36,801 nt of DNA from a virus (Duplodnaviria; Caudoviricetes). Position 1 is the first letter of the stretch, and each line of letters begins with the position of its first letter. Under the pieces are notes generated by a model. That model was not told the origin of the DNA. It was given only the letters and a program-made list of their open reading frames with translations, and made no database searches. The DNA lies in the IMG/VR virus record IMGVR_UViG_3300038675_000028, positions 1-36,801 of that record; one strand, 5' to 3'. This document shows, piece after piece, positions 4,428 to 11,457 of the stretch. The position numbers and the translations under genes were made by a program.

Positions 4428-4618
4428 CTGGCTTGGATATTAAAGCCAAGATTGACGAGAACAATCGAATCATCGAAAGTTTGCTTTGCCCGAATCAGTT
4501 CACACTGAATAACACCATCGCAAACCTGCTCCGCGAGAATGTCAAACTCCAGAAGCATTGTCCTCATAAGTTTGAGGATGGCTTCTGCATCTACTGCTAC
4601 GGGGAGGAAAAGAAGTGA
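4424..4618 (+). CDS. Small coiled-coil protein with C-terminal CxH..CxxC putative Zn finger
   Basis: ATG 4424 overlaps the upstream stop (ATGA), preceded by AGGGGG; 64 aa ending CPHKFEDGFCIYC. Confidence 0.7.
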   Translation: MTGLDIKAKIDENNRIIESLLCPNQFTLNNTIANLLRENVKLQKHCPHKFEDGFCIYCYGEEKK

Positions 4619-4815
4619 AAGTGATTTTGTACACCATTGGTTGCCCGGCTTGTAAGATGCTGGAATCTAAGCTGGACGCCAAGAATATCGCGTATGATAA
4701 GGTCAGTGATGAGGCCGTTTTGCGCGAGAAGGGTATCGACGTGCTTCCTAAACTGGAAGTTGATGGTCAGATGATGGGTCTGGCTGTTGCGAACTCCTGG
4801 ATTAACAACCAGTAA
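4615..4815 (+). CDS. Glutaredoxin/NrdH-like redoxin
   Basis: 66 aa, VILYT-x-GCPAC active-site motif, cis-Pro motif VLPKLEVDG; GGAGG RBS; GTGA overlap; directly upstream of nrdD. Confidence 0.9.
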   Translation: MKVILYTIGCPACKMLESKLDAKNIAYDKVSDEAVLREKGIDVLPKLEVDGQMMGLAVANSWINNQ

Positions 4816-4824
4816 GGAGGTAGT

Positions 4825-5499
4825 ATGGCAAATATCAATGTGCGGTTGGGGAAGAATTTCACAACTGCTTTCAATCGGATGAACGACACCTACGGTGAGG
4901 AATTTGCAAAGCTGAATGGTTTTGCTGACAGTCAGCTGAGTTATACCGACTTTATCGACAATTTTATTGACTCGGAGACGGTTGCAGATGCCTCTGTCGA
5001 CGGCAGCGCCAATGTCGGCAACAAGGATATGCGGACGCTGCTGAATGAGATGCCTAAGCCTCATCGTAAGCTACTGGCGTATAACAAGATTTACCACGAA
5101 CTCAATAAAAAATATGGGTTCAAAACTGCAAATGAGTGGGTGCGCGCCGAGTGGACAAAAGCACTCTATCTGCATGATGCGGATACTGCTTCATTCTTGC
5201 ACTACTGTTTTGCATATGATTTGAAGGACTTAGCCGAAAAAGGTTTGTTCTTCTTGGATAACTTCAATGCAGAGCCACCGCAGCATTTTTCCACTTTTGT
5301 GGACTTTGTTAAGGAGTTCATTTCCTTCACTTCCAATCGCTCTTCCGGCGCTTGCGGCCTGCCGAATTTGGTGCCATACCTGTACTATTTCTGGTACAAG
5401 GATTGTGAGAATGGGTACGCGACGAAGTCTCCAGATTACTACGCACGCCAGCAAATTCAGAGATTCATATACGCGGTGAATCAACCGTATGTCAGGGAT
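4825..5499 (+). CDS. nrdD: Anaerobic (class III) ribonucleotide reductase, exon 1
   Basis: AAGGAGG RBS; YLHD, YCFAYDL, PPQH, SSGACG, NQP motifs. 225 codons ending at the predicted 5' splice site (..GTCAGGGAT|). No N-terminal ATP cone. Confidence 0.92.
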
Positions 5500-6644
5500 A
5501 GACAAAATACTGTCCATTAAACACTTTTCCGGTTCATCACCGGGGTCATTTATATAATGGCTAACGAGGAAGCCTAAGTCCGAAAGGATATGGTAATCTC
5601 GTGGGAATCAAATCAATTAGGCTATCACTTGATAAGGAGGTGAGTAAATTGAAAAAGGATATTTATGTCATCAAAAATGACATGAATAATAAGGTTTATG
5701 TTGGGCAAGCCATAGATGCGAAAATCAGATTTCAAAGTCATTGTAAACCATCATCTGCTTCTTATTCATTGATTTCAAAAGCAATTCAAAAATATGGACG
5801 CGAACATTTCACTTATAAGATTGTTGAACGGCAGATTGAAAATTACAATGAACGAGAGAAATATTGGATTGAAAAATATAATTCAATCGCGCCCAATGGT
5901 TACAATTTGCTTCCTGGTGGAGAAGAACCTCCAATTATGAAAGGATTTAACCATCCTGAAAGTTGCCTTTCTGCTCAAGATGTAGAAGATTTAACTTTTG
6001 AACTTCAGCAAACAGATAAAACTTTTATTGAGTTAGCTAAAAAATATGGTTTTAAGTCAAATACTTCTATTTCTGAGTTTAATAAAGGTTTAACTTATGT
6101 GCGAAACATAGAATATCCAATCAGACCCAGTCCTCACAACGGCAAGTTATCTCAAACAGAAGTTGATGAAATTTACTTGCTCCTAAAATATACCTATCGC
6201 TCTTATGAAAGTATAGGTCAGCAATATGGAGTTGAAGCGCGAGCTATTTCTCGGATAAATCGGGGTATTTTTCATAAAAAAGATAACGAAATTTATCCAC
6301 TAAGAGAAGGAAAAATCGGCAGCGTTCCACCTAAGTTGACTTATGAGCAAGTTACTTCTATTATTAGCCAACTTCAATCAACTTCTAAAAGTCTACGAGA
6401 AATTGCCAGAGATTTTGACGTAGATTATAAAGATATTCTTGATATAAAAAATGGTACAACCAAGTTGTATAGACGACGTGGAATAGCCTATCCACTTCGG
6501 CCTAATAATTGATTTGAAGCCTGTATCGACTATCTCCGCGAAGGAGAGTACATCTACTATTGATACGTAGATGGAAAGAGTGTTTACTTCCTTTAAGAGG
6601 AAGTTAAAAAATAGTCAATGCTTAGTGAAAACTAAGATAACATG
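5500..6644 (+). mobile_element. Group I intron (IA2-like) in nrdD
   Basis: P1 GGAU|AG pairs with CUGUCC, giving a U.G wobble at the splice site. P10 AAUACU pairs with exon-2 GGUAUU. P3 ACACTTTTCC/GGAAAGAGTGT; P7 GACTAT(6528)/ATAGTC(6611); P7.1 and P7.2 hairpins; P8 ACTTCCT/AGGAAGT; P9 CTTAGT-GAAA-ACTAAG; terminal G6644. Removal restores in-frame NQPYVRD|GIQSAFTN. Confidence 0.93.
5649..6512 (+). CDS. Intron-encoded GIY-YIG homing endonuclease with three C-terminal HTH-like repeats
   Basis: TAAGGAGGTGA RBS then TTG 5649; DIYVIKN..VYVGQA, RFQSH, REKYWI, GYNL motifs; AT-rich; enclosed by the intron stem TCAAATCAATTA/TAATTGATTTGA. Confidence 0.92.
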   Translation: MKKDIYVIKNDMNNKVYVGQAIDAKIRFQSHCKPSSASYSLISKAIQKYGREHFTYKIVERQIENYNEREKYWIEKYNSIAPNGYNLLPGGEEPPIMKGFNHPESCLSAQDVEDLTFELQQTDKTFIELAKKYGFKSNTSISEFNKGLTYVRNIEYPIRPSPHNGKLSQTEVDEIYLLLKYTYRSYESIGQQYGVEARAISRINRGIFHKKDNEIYPLREGKIGSVPPKLTYEQVTSIISQLQSTSKSLREIARDFDVDYKDILDIKNGTTKLYRRRGIAYPLRPNN

Positions 6645-7889
6645 GGTATTCAATCCGCATTTACCAATGTGTCCGTCTTTGATGGCCCATATCTGGAAGC
6701 CCTGTTTGGCGGCGCCACCTTCCCTGATGGGACTTTTATGATTGACCATTTAGAGCAAATCAAAGAGTTCCAAAAGACTTTCATGGAAGTCGTGTCTGAG
6801 ATTCGTTCTCATAACATGATGACCTTCCCTGTGTTGACCATTTCTCTGCTTCGTAAGAATGGTAAGTTTGTTGACGAACCATTCGCACGCTGGGGAGTAG
6901 CGCATAATATGAAGTGGAATGATTCCAATTTGTTCATTGACGACAGTGTTACGTCTTTGTCGAATTGCTGCCGTTTGAAGTCCAACATTGACGACCTGGG
7001 TTATTTCAACAGTATCGGCGGGACAGCATTGAAAGTTGGCTCCGTTAAGGTTTCTACCGTGAATCTCGCGCGAATTGCTCTTGAGCATCAGACCGAGCAA
7101 GACTACCTTGTTGCGTTGCGCGACATCGTTGAACTCAACTGTAAAGTTCTTGATGTTGTACGTACCATTATGCAACGTAATGTTGAAAAAGGGCTGCTTC
7201 CTAACTTCTCTAAAGGTTTGGTTGACTTTGAGCATCTCTACAACACCGTTGGCATTATCGGTGTCTACGAAACAATGAAATCCTTCGGCTATGTGCGCGA
7301 GGACGAATTTGGTAACTCTTTCTACACCGAAGATGCTGACCGTTTCGGTAAGAAAATCTTTGAGGTCATCCATCGCACGAAAGACCAATTTGCGCTGGAT
7401 AAGAACTATAAGATTAACCTGGAACAAGTTCCTGGTGAAACCTGCGCGAATAAAATGATGCAGGCCGATAAACTGCTTTATCCTGAAAGCGTAGTTGATG
7501 ACCTGCCCCTGTATGGAAATCAGTTTATTCCGCTGGGAATTAAAACTACGCTCCAGGGGCGCGTGAGAATTGCTTCTCTGTTCGACTCCTATTGCAACGG
7601 CGGCAGTATTGCTCATATCAATATCGAAACTCCGTTCAAAAACTTTGAGCAGGCGTGGAAGATGACGGAGTATATTGCTGACCAGGGACTTACTTACTTC
7701 GCCTTTAACACCAAAATCCAGGCGTGTGAAAAGAACCATGCGTTCTTTGGGAAAGTATGTCCTGTGTGTGGGCGCCCGATTGCTACTGAATATACCAGGA
7801 TTGTTGGCTTTTATACACCAATTAAGACTTGGTCGAGAGAGCGCAAAGATGAATATGCTATGCGCGAATGGGAGAACGTAAATGAGTGA
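6645..7889 (+). CDS. nrdD: Anaerobic (class III) ribonucleotide reductase, exon 2 (spliced product ~639 aa)
   Basis: QSAFTN, TFPV, finger loop SNCCRL, NLAR, GIIGVYE, EQVPGE, NGGSI, metal site CEKNH..CPVC and glycyl-radical motif RIVGFY. Confidence 0.94.
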   Translation, partial: GIQSAFTNVSVFDGPYLEALFGGATFPDGTFMIDHLEQIKEFQKTFMEVVSEIRSHNMMTFPVLTISLLRKNGKFVDEPFARWGVAHNMKWNDSNLFIDDSVTSLSNCCRLKSNIDDLGYFNSIGGTALKVGSVKVSTVNLARIALEHQTEQDYLVALRDIVELNCKVLDVVRTIMQRNVEKGLLPNFSKGLVDFEHLYNTVGIIGVYETMKSFGYVREDEFGNSFYTEDADRFGKKIFEVIHRTKDQFALDKNYKINLEQVPGETCANKMMQADKLLYPESVVDDLPLYGNQFIPLGIKTTLQGRVRIASLFDSYCNGGSIAHINIETPFKNFEQAWKMTEYIADQGLTYFAFNTKIQACEKNHAFFGKVCPVCGRPIATEYTRIVGFYTPIKTWSRERKDEYAMREWENVNE

Positions 7890-8370
7890 ACCTATGAAAG
7901 TGCCATATGACGTTGTCAAGCGTATGCTTGACAGCGTCGCAGAGCACTATAAACATGAAAATTGGCGCCTGGATGATTGCTACCTGACTTTTGAGTATAT
8001 CATTGGTAGCTGTTTCCCATCTGCCTTGCACACTATCAAAGACACAATGCGCGACCTCCACACTCAGGGGTATATCCAGGGGAGAGCCGCGCGCCTGATG
8101 GAAGATGGCGGAGTTGTCTCTATCCAAGGGGTGTCTCAGCACATCAACACAATTCTGACTGGGTTGGCGCCGCTCCGCAAAGAAATTCAGGATGCAAGCC
8201 GTATCGTTGATGAAGCACCGAATCATGGCTGGTCCGCCGAGGAAATTTACCCCAATCTCAAAGCTGTTGACCAGAGTGAGTATCTGCTGAATGAGCTAAC
8301 GATTGCCTGTCAAAATGCACTCGGCGCCAATGCCATTGTTGTTCTTAAGGAGGACACAAATGAGACTTAA
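7882..8370 (+). CDS. Hypothetical protein between nrdD and nrdG
   Basis: 162-aa ORF, GGGAG RBS, overlaps both neighbours; no motif recognised. Confidence 0.75.
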   Translation: MSEPMKVPYDVVKRMLDSVAEHYKHENWRLDDCYLTFEYIIGSCFPSALHTIKDTMRDLHTQGYIQGRAARLMEDGGVVSIQGVSQHINTILTGLAPLRKEIQDASRIVDEAPNHGWSAEEIYPNLKAVDQSEYLLNELTIACQNALGANAIVVLKEDTNET

Positions 8371-9064
8371 AGGTTTGGTTGATGAGGATATCGCCAATTA
8401 CTCCAAGACGTCGATGTTCCTTATCTTTCCTGACTGCTCTTTCAAGTGCGATATCGAGTGCGGAGAACAGGTGTGTCAAAACTCCGCACTCGCGCACGCT
8501 CCGGTAATTGATATTGCTAAAGAGGAAATCTGTGAACGATACATCACAAATCCCATGACAGAGGCGGTCGTACTTGGCGGCCTTGAGCCTTTCGATTCTG
8601 CTATGGATTTGGTGAGTTTTGTTAATTGCCTCCGGCGCCAGTATCAGTGTGAGGATGATATCGTCATCTATACCGGCTACACCGAAGACGAAATACTGAA
8701 TGGCGCGATGCTGAAGAACGTCTTTGAGACTATCTGCCAGTTTGGCAATATTATCGTGAAATATGGGCGATTTGTACCTGGCCAGGACAGTCACTTTGAC
8801 CAGGTATTAGGTGTGAATCTGGCATCACTTAATCAATACGCTAAACGATATGAAAAAGGGATGCTTTCTTCTTTCCCCTCAAAGAAAATTATTCTAAATC
8901 CTGACAAAGATGTTGTGGATGCAGTCCGCGCCGCCTTGAAAGAGAATGATGGTTACTGCCCTTGTCGCTTGGAGAAGACTGCTGATACAAAGTGTATGTG
9001 CAAAGATTTCCGTGAGCAAGAAAGTGGTATGTGCCATTGCGGTCTGTATATCAAGGAAAATTGA
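8360..9064 (+). CDS. nrdG: Class III RNR activase (radical SAM) fused to a C-terminal ferredoxin:thioredoxin reductase catalytic-like domain
   Basis: AAGGAGG RBS, ATG 8360. CSFKC..CQN, GGLEPF, IYTGY, GRF, ASLNQ are NrdG motifs. The last ~60 aa (LNPD..GYCPC..CMC..CHCGLY) carry the three Cys-x-Cys motifs of the FTR catalytic chain. Confidence 0.9.
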   Translation: MRLKGLVDEDIANYSKTSMFLIFPDCSFKCDIECGEQVCQNSALAHAPVIDIAKEEICERYITNPMTEAVVLGGLEPFDSAMDLVSFVNCLRRQYQCEDDIVIYTGYTEDEILNGAMLKNVFETICQFGNIIVKYGRFVPGQDSHFDQVLGVNLASLNQYAKRYEKGMLSSFPSKKIILNPDKDVVDAVRAALKENDGYCPCRLEKTADTKCMCKDFREQESGMCHCGLYIKEN

Positions 9065-9354: not shown

Positions 9355-10035
9355 ATGAATAAACCTCTCTCTAATATTAAGGTTTACGACCTTGAGGAAA
9401 GTCTGATTGCCAGCGGCTACCCAATGCGCACCACCGCTGAAATGCGCGAGGTCGAAGACAAGGATTGGAAGCGCGGGCGCAATCTGACAAAGGCATCTAA
9501 CGGAAATAACGCCCACGGTCAGTGGCTTACGGGTGTGCGTGTCGCCTTTGATATGACCTTCTCTAATAAGGGATGGGTCGAGGCGGAGCGTTATCGCTTT
9601 CTTGAGTTCGTCAGTTCCCAGTCCACCATGCACCGAATCACTAAGTTCGACATCCGGCGCCAGTACAATGAGTACGTTGACCCACGGGTTATCGAAATTA
9701 TGGAGGAAAAAGTCGCTGTATATAACGCCTGGGTTGATGAGCCTGATGTCATTATGAATGATTATGGCATCACCAAGGAAGAGTACAACGAGCGGCTTAA
9801 GGTGAAATACCTTGAAATCCTCTATACGAATCCTGCTGGATTCACACTGACGGCACGCATGACTACGGATTACCGTTGTCTGCTGAATATGTACGTCCAG
9901 CGCCATGACCATCTTCTGCCGGAGTGGCGCCTGCTGTGTGAGCAGTTGTTGGAGTTGCCGCATTTTAAGGAGTTGGTGGAAGCCTATTACTCTGGCGGCA
10001 TCCACAAAGATAACTTCTTCGAGGGTGAGCGCTGA
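9355..10035 (+). CDS. thyX: Flavin-dependent thymidylate synthase-like protein
   Basis: AAGGAGG RBS; ERYRFLEFVSSQS (variant of RHRx7-8S), NPAG, TDYRCL, QR..H.LPEW; located in a nucleotide-metabolism cluster. Confidence 0.72.
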   Translation: MNKPLSNIKVYDLEESLIASGYPMRTTAEMREVEDKDWKRGRNLTKASNGNNAHGQWLTGVRVAFDMTFSNKGWVEAERYRFLEFVSSQSTMHRITKFDIRRQYNEYVDPRVIEIMEEKVAVYNAWVDEPDVIMNDYGITKEEYNERLKVKYLEILYTNPAGFTLTARMTTDYRCLLNMYVQRHDHLLPEWRLLCEQLLELPHFKELVEAYYSGGIHKDNFFEGER

Positions 10036-10494: not shown

Positions 10495-11457
10495 ATGGCT
10501 GAAATTCTGACAATCGACCAAACGAAGGCGGCCGCCCAAAAGGTGGCAGAAATGCCTGCTCAGGTCGAGCAAGAACAAAAGAATCTGTTCCAATCCATTA
10601 TGGAACAAATGAGCGCCGTCAATCAAAGTCTCGGTGGTTTTGAGGAACTCGGCGCGCTGCTCGCGCTTCCCGATGAAATGTTCACCATTCTCGGCCCAAT
10701 TTTCTTGGAGGAATTGGAGAAGGGGCTGAATAACACCAATGACAAAATGCTGCTGGTGCAGGCGCTCAATGCGTCTGGTATGCAGGTGCAGGACGTCCAG
10801 GCAGAATATGTGAGTATCGCTGCCGGCATCGACAAGATGGAAGGTCTGACAAACATGAAGAAGGACTTCCTCAAGCAGATGATTGGGATGGTGTACAACG
10901 GGATTGCTGACACAGCGGGCGCCGGTAAGAAGTTCATCAACATCGCAGTTGAGCTGTGCCATCCTGACGCGAAGATGCCTACCTATGCTAATCCTGGCGA
11001 CAGCGGCATGGATGTGTATGCCGTGGAAGATACGACCGTCGCGCCGGGTGAGACAAAGCTGATTCATACCGGCATTAAGATGGCTATTCCGCTGGGATAT
11101 GAAATCCAGGTTCGTCCCAAGAGCGGGCGCGCGCTGAAGACGAAACTGCGCGTTGCTAATACGCCTGGTACGATTGATTCCGGGTATCGGGATGAAATCT
11201 GCGTTATCATTGACAATATCGAGCCGCCTGTTACGGATGTGGCTGGAGACTATATTGGTGATGGTTCCACTGGCCCCATCAGTTTCAAGGTTGGTTCCGT
11301 GGCAACCGGGCGCGAGTTCACTATTGGGAAAGGAGAGAAGTTCTGCCAGTTTGTGCTTTGCGAAGTTCCCAAAGCCGTTCTTCACCAGGTTGAGAGCGTT
11401 GGGTCTATCGCAAATGACGGGCGCAACGGGGGCTTTGGAAGTACGGGAGTGAAGTAA
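10495..11457 (+). CDS. dut: Trimeric dUTPase with ~145-aa N-terminal extension
   Basis: Five motifs present: DSGMDV, RPKSG, GTIDSGYRDEI, KFCQ, RNGGFGSTG; AAGGAGG RBS. Confidence 0.93.
   Translation: MAEILTIDQTKAAAQKVAEMPAQVEQEQKNLFQSIMEQMSAVNQSLGGFEELGALLALPDEMFTILGPIFLEELEKGLNNTNDKMLLVQALNASGMQVQDVQAEYVSIAAGIDKMEGLTNMKKDFLKQMIGMVYNGIADTAGAGKKFINIAVELCHPDAKMPTYANPGDSGMDVYAVEDTTVAPGETKLIHTGIKMAIPLGYEIQVRPKSGRALKTKLRVANTPGTIDSGYRDEICVIIDNIEPPVTDVAGDYIGDGSTGPISFKVGSVATGREFTIGKGEKFCQFVLCEVPKAVLHQVESVGSIANDGRNGGFGSTGVK

What the first reader, a model, noticed from the sequence alone, without database searches (positions are those of the whole stretch)
4615..9064. Phage-encoded, self-contained electron chain for a thiol-dependent class III RNR: redoxin + Cys-Cys NrdD + NrdG-FTR fusion
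Seen: in one tightly packed operon, a CPAC redoxin, an NrdD whose finger loop reads SNCCRL (tandem Cys) and an NrdG ending in a domain with CPC/CMC/CHC motifs. Established: T4-type NrdD (MGCR loop) uses formate, whereas Cys-Cys NrdDs use redoxins; Methanosarcina barkeri NrdD is fed by NrdH and an FTR-family ferredoxin:disulfide reductase. Inference: this phage taps host reduced ferredoxin through its own FTR domain to re-reduce its redoxin and NrdD, making dNTP synthesis independent of formate and NADPH/TrxR. I do not know of this arrangement being described in a phage.
Basis: partly seen in the sequence, partly recalled or inferred. Interest (0 to 1): 0.88.

Follow-up and report, generated by a model that had tools for sequence, protein, structure and literature searches.

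The report
Phage anaerobic RNR with mini-FTR relay
This phage carries an oxygen-sensitive enzyme for making DNA building blocks, split by a self-splicing-type intron, together with a small redoxin and a 59-residue iron-sulfur reductase domain that likely pass it electrons from the host's ferredoxin instead of formate; the gene set is common in related phages but its activity is untested.

Summary
The motifs are real: CPAC redoxin, SNCCRL NrdD, and NrdG ending in a FeThRed_B domain (28.1 bits, cut-off 22) that folds like Methanosarcina FDR. The NrdD is Thermotoga-type (Glu kept, no Met), not M. barkeri NrdD3. Among related phage nrdD loci, 75 of 76 carry the redoxin and 56 of 71 the mini-FTR. 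None of 80 MGCR-type phage loci carries either. Host copies sit beside trxA in 11 of 24 loci, one phage fuses FTR to the redoxin, and a complex model docks FTR Cys202 on redoxin Cys10. So ferredoxin→FTR→redoxin→NrdD is likely (0.65), but it is not self-contained or obligate. Seven near-complete relatives lack FTR, 0 of 5 FTR-bearing phages encode a ferredoxin, and the NrdG fusion is rare (0 of 71) and probably incidental. Phage c-st has the unfused set, annotated in GenBank. This scan reported the module on three other phages. I found no paper describing it. New variant of a known kind.

The parts
4615..4815 (+). Small NrdH/glutaredoxin-like redoxin, 66 aa, C10-P-A-C13, Pro45 in the cis-Pro position; GTG start overlaps the stop of the ORF upstream
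   Evidence: a homologue lies upstream of nrdD in 75 of 76 viral loci; all 76 redoxin hits examined keep CxxC and the downstream Pro
4825..5499 (+). nrdD exon 1 (aa 1-225), including Tyr127/Cys128 (= T. maritima Tyr124/Cys125); begins without an ATP cone by its alignment to the T. maritima N-terminus
   Evidence: PF13597; T. maritima 4U3E/4COI, E 1e-40
5500..6644 (+). Group I intron, 1,145 nt, 34.5% GC against 45-46% in the exons. P1 GGAU|AG pairs with CUGUCC (5496/5510); P3 5518/6579; P7 GACUA/UAGUC 6528/6612; P8 6587/6599; ends in G6644. The extra stems between P7 and P3 fit subgroup IA2 (assignment recalled)
   Evidence: intronless relatives join exactly here (L001: aa 225 ends at 4540, aa 226 starts at 4541; 83-86% identity); 255 of 270 loci are continuous across the site
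5601..6512 (+). Intron-encoded GIY-YIG homing endonuclease; the likely start is TTG 5649, behind AAGGAGG
   Evidence: TIGR01453 72.4 bits against a cut-off of 56; PF01541; start sites
6645..7889 (+). nrdD exon 2 (aa 226-639): SNC333C334RL, NSI349GG, Ser358, Glu485 (= T. maritima Glu495), Zn-ribbon cysteines 586/597/600, glycyl-radical Gly613 (RIVGF)
   Evidence: T. maritima NrdD is the only PDB match, E 2e-96
7882..8370 (+). 162-aa ORF of no known family between nrdD and nrdG; its middle part recurs at this position in some relatives
   Evidence: no hit in NCBIfam, Pfam, PHROGs or the Atlas; tblastn hits in L001, L002, L009
8360..8854 (+). NrdG radical-SAM activase domain; likely cluster ligands C26, C30, C39 (expanded motif; C34 is not conserved in L002 and L009)
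8885..9064 (+). Mini-FTR domain (aa 176-234): C200PC202-x9-C212MC214-x10-C225HC227, joined to NrdG by a short linker that holds an in-frame ATG at 8861
   Evidence: PF02943; AF2 pLDDT 96; matches 4TPU, 7PWE and 1DJ7; internal ATG

Best explanation
This is a phage class III ribonucleotide reductase operon of the Thermotoga maritima type that likely re-reduces its active-site disulfide through its own redoxin, which is in turn likely reduced by the 59-residue FTR domain using electrons from host ferredoxin or flavodoxin. Steps: (1) The intron is predicted to self-splice, giving a 639-aa NrdD (anatomy shown, splicing inferred). (2) NrdG would put the radical on Gly613 (established family chemistry). 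[quoted passage not shown] (4) Redoxin Cys10/Cys13 would reduce that disulfide (inferred). (5) FTR C200, C212, C214 and C225 would bind a [4Fe-4S] cluster, C202-C227 would be the redox disulfide, and C202 would attack the redoxin (inferred from homology and a model). (6) The electron donor must be a host protein, since these phages encode none. The FTR is accessory: it frees the phage from relying on a host reductase that fits its redoxin, and lineages that lose it would use a host enzyme. The fusion to NrdG is most likely a tolerated loss of the stop between two adjacent genes.
For: Co-occurrence. Of 80 viral loci anchored on this NrdD, 75 of 76 with enough upstream DNA have the redoxin and 56 of 71 with enough downstream DNA have the mini-FTR within 1.8 kb; at 90% identity that is 28 clusters with FTR, 11 without and 1 mixed. 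Control: 0 of 80 viral MGCR-type nrdD loci with flanks carry either gene (0 of 50 under the strict filter), and a profile-free three-CxC pattern also finds nothing. In the other direction, 66 of 70 FTR-anchored loci have NrdD plus redoxin, with finger loops NCCR 65, MCCR 4, SCCR 3 and MGCR 0 of 80, falling in three NrdD groups under 40% identical to each other. Partner. Chromosomal homologues lie within 1.5 kb of a thioredoxin gene in 11 of 24 loci, and L024 fuses the mini-FTR to a CPRC redoxin between nrdD and nrdG. Fold. 4TPU Z 6.7, rmsd 1.7, 58 aligned; 7PWE Z 6.6, rmsd 1.6, 58 aligned; 1DJ7 Z 5.4, rmsd 2.1, 56 aligned; next row Z 2.5. All six Cys are invariant in 19 of 19 aligned rows, and the His is kept in 53 of 60. 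Complex model. Score 0.65 against a best control of 0.00 (mark reached by 116 of 157 solved and 2 of 215 mismatched pairs; runs agree in at least 97% of contacts; partner pLDDT at least 91), with FTR C202 touching redoxin C10 and the cis-Pro loop. Like complexes are solved, so this may show likeness only. No formate signature: no Met before the CC motif, and Phe at the T. maritima Met356 position. T. maritima NrdD was inactive with formate and needed a protein factor (PMC4493059).
Against: No activity, cluster binding or splicing has been measured. Seven near-complete phage genomes with the same NrdD and redoxin have no mini-FTR anywhere (G016; G031-33 and G036-38), and five tested also lack a flavoprotein disulfide reductase. 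The tree needs 4 to 11 gains or losses. T. maritima itself has no PF02943 hit (control). The mini-FTR also occurs in complete phage genomes with no NrdD: G007 and G008 have no RNR of any class, and crAss001 has only a class I/II RNR about 73 kb away. It fuses to unrelated ORFs too (HTH, Lar, ThyX). It lacks the rubredoxin domain of M. acetivorans FDR and about half the length of FTRc, so the ferredoxin-docking face is unproven. The co-occurrence counts are inflated by shared descent, the control phages are mostly smaller, and my profiles were built from this family.
Confidence: 0.65

Rival explanations
1. NrdD depends on the redoxin, but in the cell the redoxin is mainly recharged by host reductases (NADPH-TrxR, flavin FFTR or the host's own mini-FTR). 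The phage mini-FTR is a general thiol-redox passenger that travels with nucleotide-metabolism genes and adds little to RNR turnover.
For: Repeated loss in complete genomes with no replacement; presence in phages without any RNR; 34 of 101 genomes of one host-type family already encode a mini-FTR.
Against: It is kept directly behind nrdG in 56 of 71 loci and with three distant Cys-Cys NrdD groups, and not in any of 80 MGCR loci; FTR-redoxin fusion inside an nrd operon.
Confidence: 0.2
2. The FTR domain serves NrdG rather than the redoxin: an electron relay or cluster store that reduces or rebuilds the radical-SAM cluster, which is why it sits behind, and fuses to, nrdG.
For: It almost always follows nrdG directly; 44 of 120 top homologues are NrdG-FTR fusions; some loci keep nrdG plus FTR with nrdD absent or truncated (L053, L074, L080).
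Against: The disulfide Cys pair and the His are conserved. The 46 NrdG cores closest to this one are unfused, and fusion is 0 of 71 among the closest viral nrdD loci. Linkers differ between fused lineages. Host copies sit beside trxA.
Confidence: 0.08
3. This NrdD is formate-dependent or needs no redoxin, or this copy is inactive because the intron does not splice; the neighbours are incidental.
For: No biochemistry exists for this NCCR subgroup, and the active conformation of the T. maritima type is itself unsettled (PMC4493059 section 15).
Against: No Met in either position, Glu kept; intact intron core and intact exons; redoxin upstream in 75 of 76 loci.
Confidence: 0.05

Closest known systems
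Methanosarcina barkeri NrdD3 + NrdH + ferredoxin:disulfide reductase (Wei et al. 2015, Biochemistry 54:7019; only the title seen in reference lists; content recalled)
   Same: Same proposed logic: ferredoxin → [4Fe-4S] disulfide reductase → small redoxin in the operon → class III RNR. The mini-FTR's best structural match is the M. acetivorans FDR 4TPU.
   Different: NrdD3 has QCCR/A and no active-site Glu; this enzyme has NCCR and Glu485. The reductase here is a 59-aa core without a rubredoxin domain, is phage-encoded inside the operon, and in this copy is fused to NrdG.
Thermotoga maritima NrdD (subclass NrdDh1; PDB 4COI/4U3E) and N. bacilliformis thioredoxin-dependent NrdD (NrdD2)
   Same: Only PDB matches; Tyr-Cys on strand A, xCCR, SIGG, Ser368 and Glu495 equivalents kept; no ATP cone.
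   Different: NCCR instead of SCCR; Phe in place of both Tyr227 and Met356. T. maritima has no PF02943 gene and its reductant was unidentified in PMC4493059.
Clostridium phage c-st CST074-CST077 (AP008983)
   Same: Glutaredoxin, NrdG-related gene, T. maritima-like NrdD and a 63-aa FTR-like gene (59% identical) next to dUTPase; the GenBank note already says 'weakly similar to ferredoxin-thioredoxin reductase'.
   Different: Order grx-nrdG-nrdD-FTR, unfused, with an in-frame insertion (putative intein, PMC3653736) instead of this intron. No functional link is drawn in the record or in the passages I saw.
Plant and cyanobacterial FTR catalytic chain (PF02943; PDB 1DJ7) and the Desulfotalea Grx-FDR fusion (7PWE)
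   Same: Three CxC motifs with CHC last; same core fold.
   Different: About half the length, 9 residues between the first two motifs, no variable subunit, anaerobic phage context.
crAss001 gp5 'putative ferredoxin-thioredoxin reductase' (PMC6235969)
   Same: Same mini-FTR family, 45% identical, already named as a phage auxiliary gene.
   Different: It lies among tRNA genes, in a genome with no class III RNR.
Phage group I introns in nrdD (T4 sunY and others; PMC3653736)
   Same: Intron with a homing endonuclease gene in nrdD, the most often split phage RNR gene.
   Different: Different NrdD subclass and site (after aa 225); about 12 other loci carry insertions at or near this site.

Membership tests
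FTR/FDR catalytic chain (PF02943) | Score above Pfam's gathering cut-off | tested here: met
   28.1 bits (whole protein) and 30.9 bits (domain) against 22
FTR/FDR catalytic chain (PF02943) | Six Cys in three CxC motifs, with a His in the last (residue roles recalled) | tested here: met
   C200/202, C212/214, C225-H226-C227; they align with 4TPU and 7PWE
FTR/FDR catalytic chain (PF02943) | FTR fold | tested here: met
   AF2 pLDDT 96; Z 6.7, 6.6 and 5.4 to 4TPU, 7PWE and 1DJ7 over 56-58 residues at rmsd 1.6-2.1, next row Z 2.5; Foldseek E only 0.026
FTR/FDR catalytic chain (PF02943) | Binds [4Fe-4S] and reduces a redoxin with ferredoxin | not testable with these tools
   Needs biochemistry; the complex model only supports it
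Methanosarcina FDR | C-terminal rubredoxin domain | tested here: not met
   The protein ends 7 residues after C227; 4TPU is 169-173 aa
Class III RNR NrdD | NRDD fold, glycyl-radical motif, Zn ribbon, partner NrdG | tested here: met
NrdD1 (formate-dependent, T4/E. coli type) | MGCR finger loop with Met | tested here: not met
   SNCCRL
NrdD2 / NrdDh (thioredoxin-type, T. maritima and N. bacilliformis) | Double Cys without Met, plus active-site Glu | tested here: met
   NCCR; Glu485 aligns with T. maritima Glu495 and is invariant in 10 of 10 rows; criterion from the passage; that Glu495 is the catalytic Glu is recalled
NrdDh1 subgroup | Ile at T. maritima position 359 (SIGG) | tested here: met
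   NSI349GG
NrdDh1 subgroup | Tyr at T. maritima position 227 and an SCCR motif | tested here: not met
   Phe231 and NCCR: closest to NrdDh1, but a separate phage subgroup
NrdD3 (M. barkeri) | QCCR/A, neither Met nor Glu | tested here: not met
   NCCR with Glu485
Group I intron | P1 with U·G at the 5' site, P3, P7, P8, terminal G, precise restoration of the reading frame | tested here: met
   (read by hand; no Rfam model matched)
Group I intron | Self-splicing activity | not testable with these tools
   needs RNA data or an in vitro assay
NrdH/glutaredoxin-like redoxin | CxxC, cis-Pro, score above the family cut-off | tested here: inconclusive
   CPAC and Pro45 present; Pfam 18.4 bits against 22.9; PHROG thioredoxin domain E 5.5e-7

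The most novel reading that the evidence does not exclude
Anaerobic gut, rumen and bioreactor phages carry the smallest ferredoxin:disulfide reductase known, a 59-residue [4Fe-4S] enzyme, as a dedicated reductant chain for Thermotoga-type class III RNR. In this lineage a single NrdG-FTR polypeptide uses one host ferredoxin both to install the glycyl radical and to pay for each turnover. The operon would then also supply the missing native reductant system for the T. maritima-like subclass.
Probability: 0.3. Interest if true: 0.75.

Novelty: new variant of a known kind. Interest (0 to 1): 0.52.

Why it matters
The T. maritima-type NrdD is the structurally odd class III RNR (Ile at the finger tip). 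In the paper I read it needed an unidentified protein from cell extract, and neither formate nor E. coli thioredoxin worked (PMC4493059). These phage operons offer a complete three-protein set from probably mesophilic hosts with which to reconstitute turnover. They would also extend the archaeal FDR-NrdH route to a second NrdD subclass and to viruses, and define a minimal FTR core without a variable subunit or rubredoxin. Ecologically, it would mean that many large anaerobic phages draw on the host's low-potential ferredoxin pool for DNA synthesis. The limits: the chemistry is known in outline, the parts are annotated in c-st and crAss001, and the FTR is dispensable.

Tried and rejected
Rfam gave no group I intron match on 5200-7000 (two chance hits), so the intron rests on hand-read pairings and intronless relatives. 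No RNA holder was listed for this stretch; the four DNA runs of one study show no joint; neither bears on expression or splicing. ORF 7882-8370 got nothing from NCBIfam, Pfam, PHROGs or the Atlas. ORF 9355-10035 looks ThyX-like only by recalled motifs, with no Pfam or PDB hit. Rejected: the fusion as an assembly error; the fusion as the ancestral or defining state (the 44-of-120 figure is enriched because fused proteins score higher); NrdD3 membership; a phage-encoded ferredoxin or flavodoxin (0 of 5 each); a phage TrxR replacing FTR in FTR-less relatives (0 of 5). The Fisher p-values printed are not used, because the loci are related. The NrdD tree is the quick tree; the careful search did not finish. 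Rows left out of the counts: 9 of 80 viral and 18 of 80 genome-collection loci with under 2.5 kb downstream; 40 of 120 control loci with about 600 bases only; 10 of 80 FTR-anchored loci with under 4 kb upstream; L140 was not held. 86 of 110 candidate neighbour ORFs were scanned, so 11 of 24 is a lower bound. Wei 2014 and Wei 2015 were not held; they or their supplements may already mention FTR-like genes in phage or clostridial nrdD operons. Literature searches found no paper linking a phage FTR to class III RNR; subscription journals are not covered.
Full report
Observation. The window is a 36.8-kb linear virus record, 31% complete, with tail, Dit and portal genes on the minus strand and DNA polymerase III alpha and dUTPase flanking the locus. 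Two things were missed. First, nrdD is in two pieces, separated by an AT-rich 1,145-nt insert (5500-6644) that encodes a GIY-YIG endonuclease (TIGR01453). Removing it restores a 639-aa frame at exactly the point where 83-86% identical relatives are continuous. The insert has P1 with a U·G pair at the cut, P3, P7, P8, P9 and a terminal G, so it is a group I intron by anatomy. Second, a 162-aa ORF of unknown family lies between nrdD and nrdG.

What kind of NrdD. The only PDB relatives are T. maritima NrdD, 4COI and 4U3E. Tyr127/Cys128, C333/C334, SI349GG, Ser358 and Glu485 align with T. maritima Tyr124/Cys125, the SCCR cysteines, SIGG, Ser368 and Glu495. There is no Met before the cysteines, and the Met356 position is Phe. 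Burnim et al. (bioRxiv 2022.04.23.489257, passages) class enzymes with Glu and without Met as likely thioredoxin-only, and define NrdD3 as QCCR/A with neither. Aurelius et al. (PMC4493059; passages and sections 11 and 15) report that T. maritima NrdD did not work with formate or E. coli thioredoxin and needed a protein fraction, and that two Clostridium phages belong to its subgroup.

What the C-terminal domain is. In 19 aligned homologues all six cysteines are invariant. The AlphaFold2 model (pLDDT 96) matches M. acetivorans FDR (Z 6.7, rmsd 1.7, 58 aligned), the Desulfotalea Grx-FDR fusion (Z 6.6, rmsd 1.6, 58 aligned) and Synechocystis-type FTR 1DJ7 (Z 5.4, rmsd 2.1, 56 aligned), and nothing else above Z 2.5 among 48,161 chains. 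The family is large: 1,291 clusters at E up to 0.001. It is also cellular: 34 of 101 genomes of one host-type family have it, and 11 of 24 of those loci have a thioredoxin gene within 1.5 kb. A model of redoxin plus FTR domain plus cluster scored 0.65 against a best control of 0.00 (mark reached by 116 of 157 solved and 2 of 215 mismatched pairs; at least 97% contact agreement; partner pLDDT at least 91), with C202 against redoxin C10 and the cis-Pro loop. Like complexes are solved, so this shows compatibility, not binding. The FTR mechanism is taken from PMC3838966 and PMC9025218 (passages); the roles of single residues are recalled.

Co-occurrence test. Anchored on NrdD, the best 80 of 601 viral matches all have xNCCRL and the Glu. 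The redoxin is upstream in 75 of 76 and the mini-FTR downstream in 56 of 71 evaluable loci; in the genome collection, mostly MAG contigs whose phage origin I did not test, the figures are 70 of 73 and 46 of 62. Anchored on FTR, 66 of 70 evaluable loci have NrdD plus redoxin, and the NrdDs fall in three groups under 40% identical to each other, all double-Cys. The control of viral MGCR-type nrdD loci has neither gene in 80 loci with flanks (22 clusters at 80% identity). L024 fuses FTR to the redoxin inside the operon.

Results against an obligate, self-contained chain. Seven genomes at least 95% complete have this NrdD and redoxin but no mini-FTR, while the positive controls ring. Five tested have no PF02943 and five no PF07992 reductase. 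Presence changes 4 to 11 times on the tree. The mini-FTR occurs without NrdD in complete small phages and in crAss001, whose paper calls it an auxiliary gene (PMC6235969, one passage). None of five FTR-bearing phages encodes a Fer4 ferredoxin or a flavodoxin, so the donor is a host protein of unknown identity.

The fusion. It is real and recurrent (44 of the top 120 clusters) but rare near this lineage: 0 of 71 viral and 1 of 62 genome-collection loci, 2 of 80 FTR-anchored loci. The 46 closest NrdG cores are unfused, and the window's protein sits alone among 49 unfused ones in a branch of 96% support. Linkers differ between fused lineages, nrdG and FTR usually overlap or abut, and the domain also fuses to unrelated ORFs. 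Repeated loss of a stop codon between neighbours is the simplest account. A shared-donor advantage is possible but unsupported. An in-frame ATG at 8861 could also yield a free FTR.

Known versus new. The logic is that of the M. barkeri FDR-NrdH-NrdD3 system (Wei 2015; title seen, text not held). The unfused gene set is annotated in phage c-st, and PMC3653736 (passages; no occurrence of 'ferredoxin') discusses c-st nrdD without the FTR gene. Ten literature searches found no description of the phage module. This scan noted it earlier on three other phage genomes; those notes are not independent support. Verdict: a real, widespread, untested variant of a known electron chain, coupled to a different NrdD subclass and reduced to a minimal enzyme. 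Mechanism confidence 0.65, interest 0.52.

Noticed in passing
L024:5262-5681: Mini-FTR fused to a CPRC redoxin between nrdD and nrdG; its NrdD has a TCCR loop and its last motif is CDC. A natural single-chain test object.
   Followed up: partly
L018:5434-6189 and L019: ThyX (PF02511) fused to a C-terminal mini-FTR with CIC/CMC/CRC motifs; the genome's SCCR-type nrdD is about 75 kb away and has TAG stops inside.
   Followed up: partly
L009, L011-L013, L036, L042, L054, L126: In-frame TAG codons inside nrdD, nrdG or FTR suggest that some of these phages read TAG as an amino acid.
   Followed up: no
L075-L111 group, e.g. L076:6772-7557: The redoxin is fused to the C-terminus of an NT5C-type 5'-deoxynucleotidase (PF06941) directly upstream of nrdD.
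   Followed up: partly
nrdD in loci L006-L286: nrdD of this family is a hot spot for introns and inteins, with breaks near aa 129, 175, 225, 290, 333 (at the Cys-Cys motif), 429, 488 and 510.
   Followed up: partly
window 7882-8370: The ORF's EYIIGSCFP-like segment recurs between nrdD and nrdG in relatives (L001, L002, L009, L035) and is fused to a mini-FTR in P0238; function unknown.
   Followed up: partly
window 9355-10035: Conserved ORF (phrog_6721) that follows FTR and precedes dUTPase in relatives; ThyX-like only by recalled motifs.
   Followed up: partly
window 10495-11457: dUTPase with an N-terminal extension of about 150 aa that is conserved in close relatives.
   Followed up: no
window 5568-5598: Loose ends in two runs show another intron with a near-identical 30-nt core stretch in the same samples.
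   Followed up: no
L412, L424, L436: Chromosomal mini-FTR beside rubrerythrin, desulfoferrodoxin, thioredoxin and a Crp-type regulator, which points to an oxidative-stress role in hosts; L421 has one next to an ATP-cone NrdD.
   Followed up: partly
L053, L074, L077, L080: nrdG plus FTR remain where nrdD and the redoxin are missing or cut down to the last ~85 codons; decayed prophage or assembly effect not resolved.
   Followed up: partly
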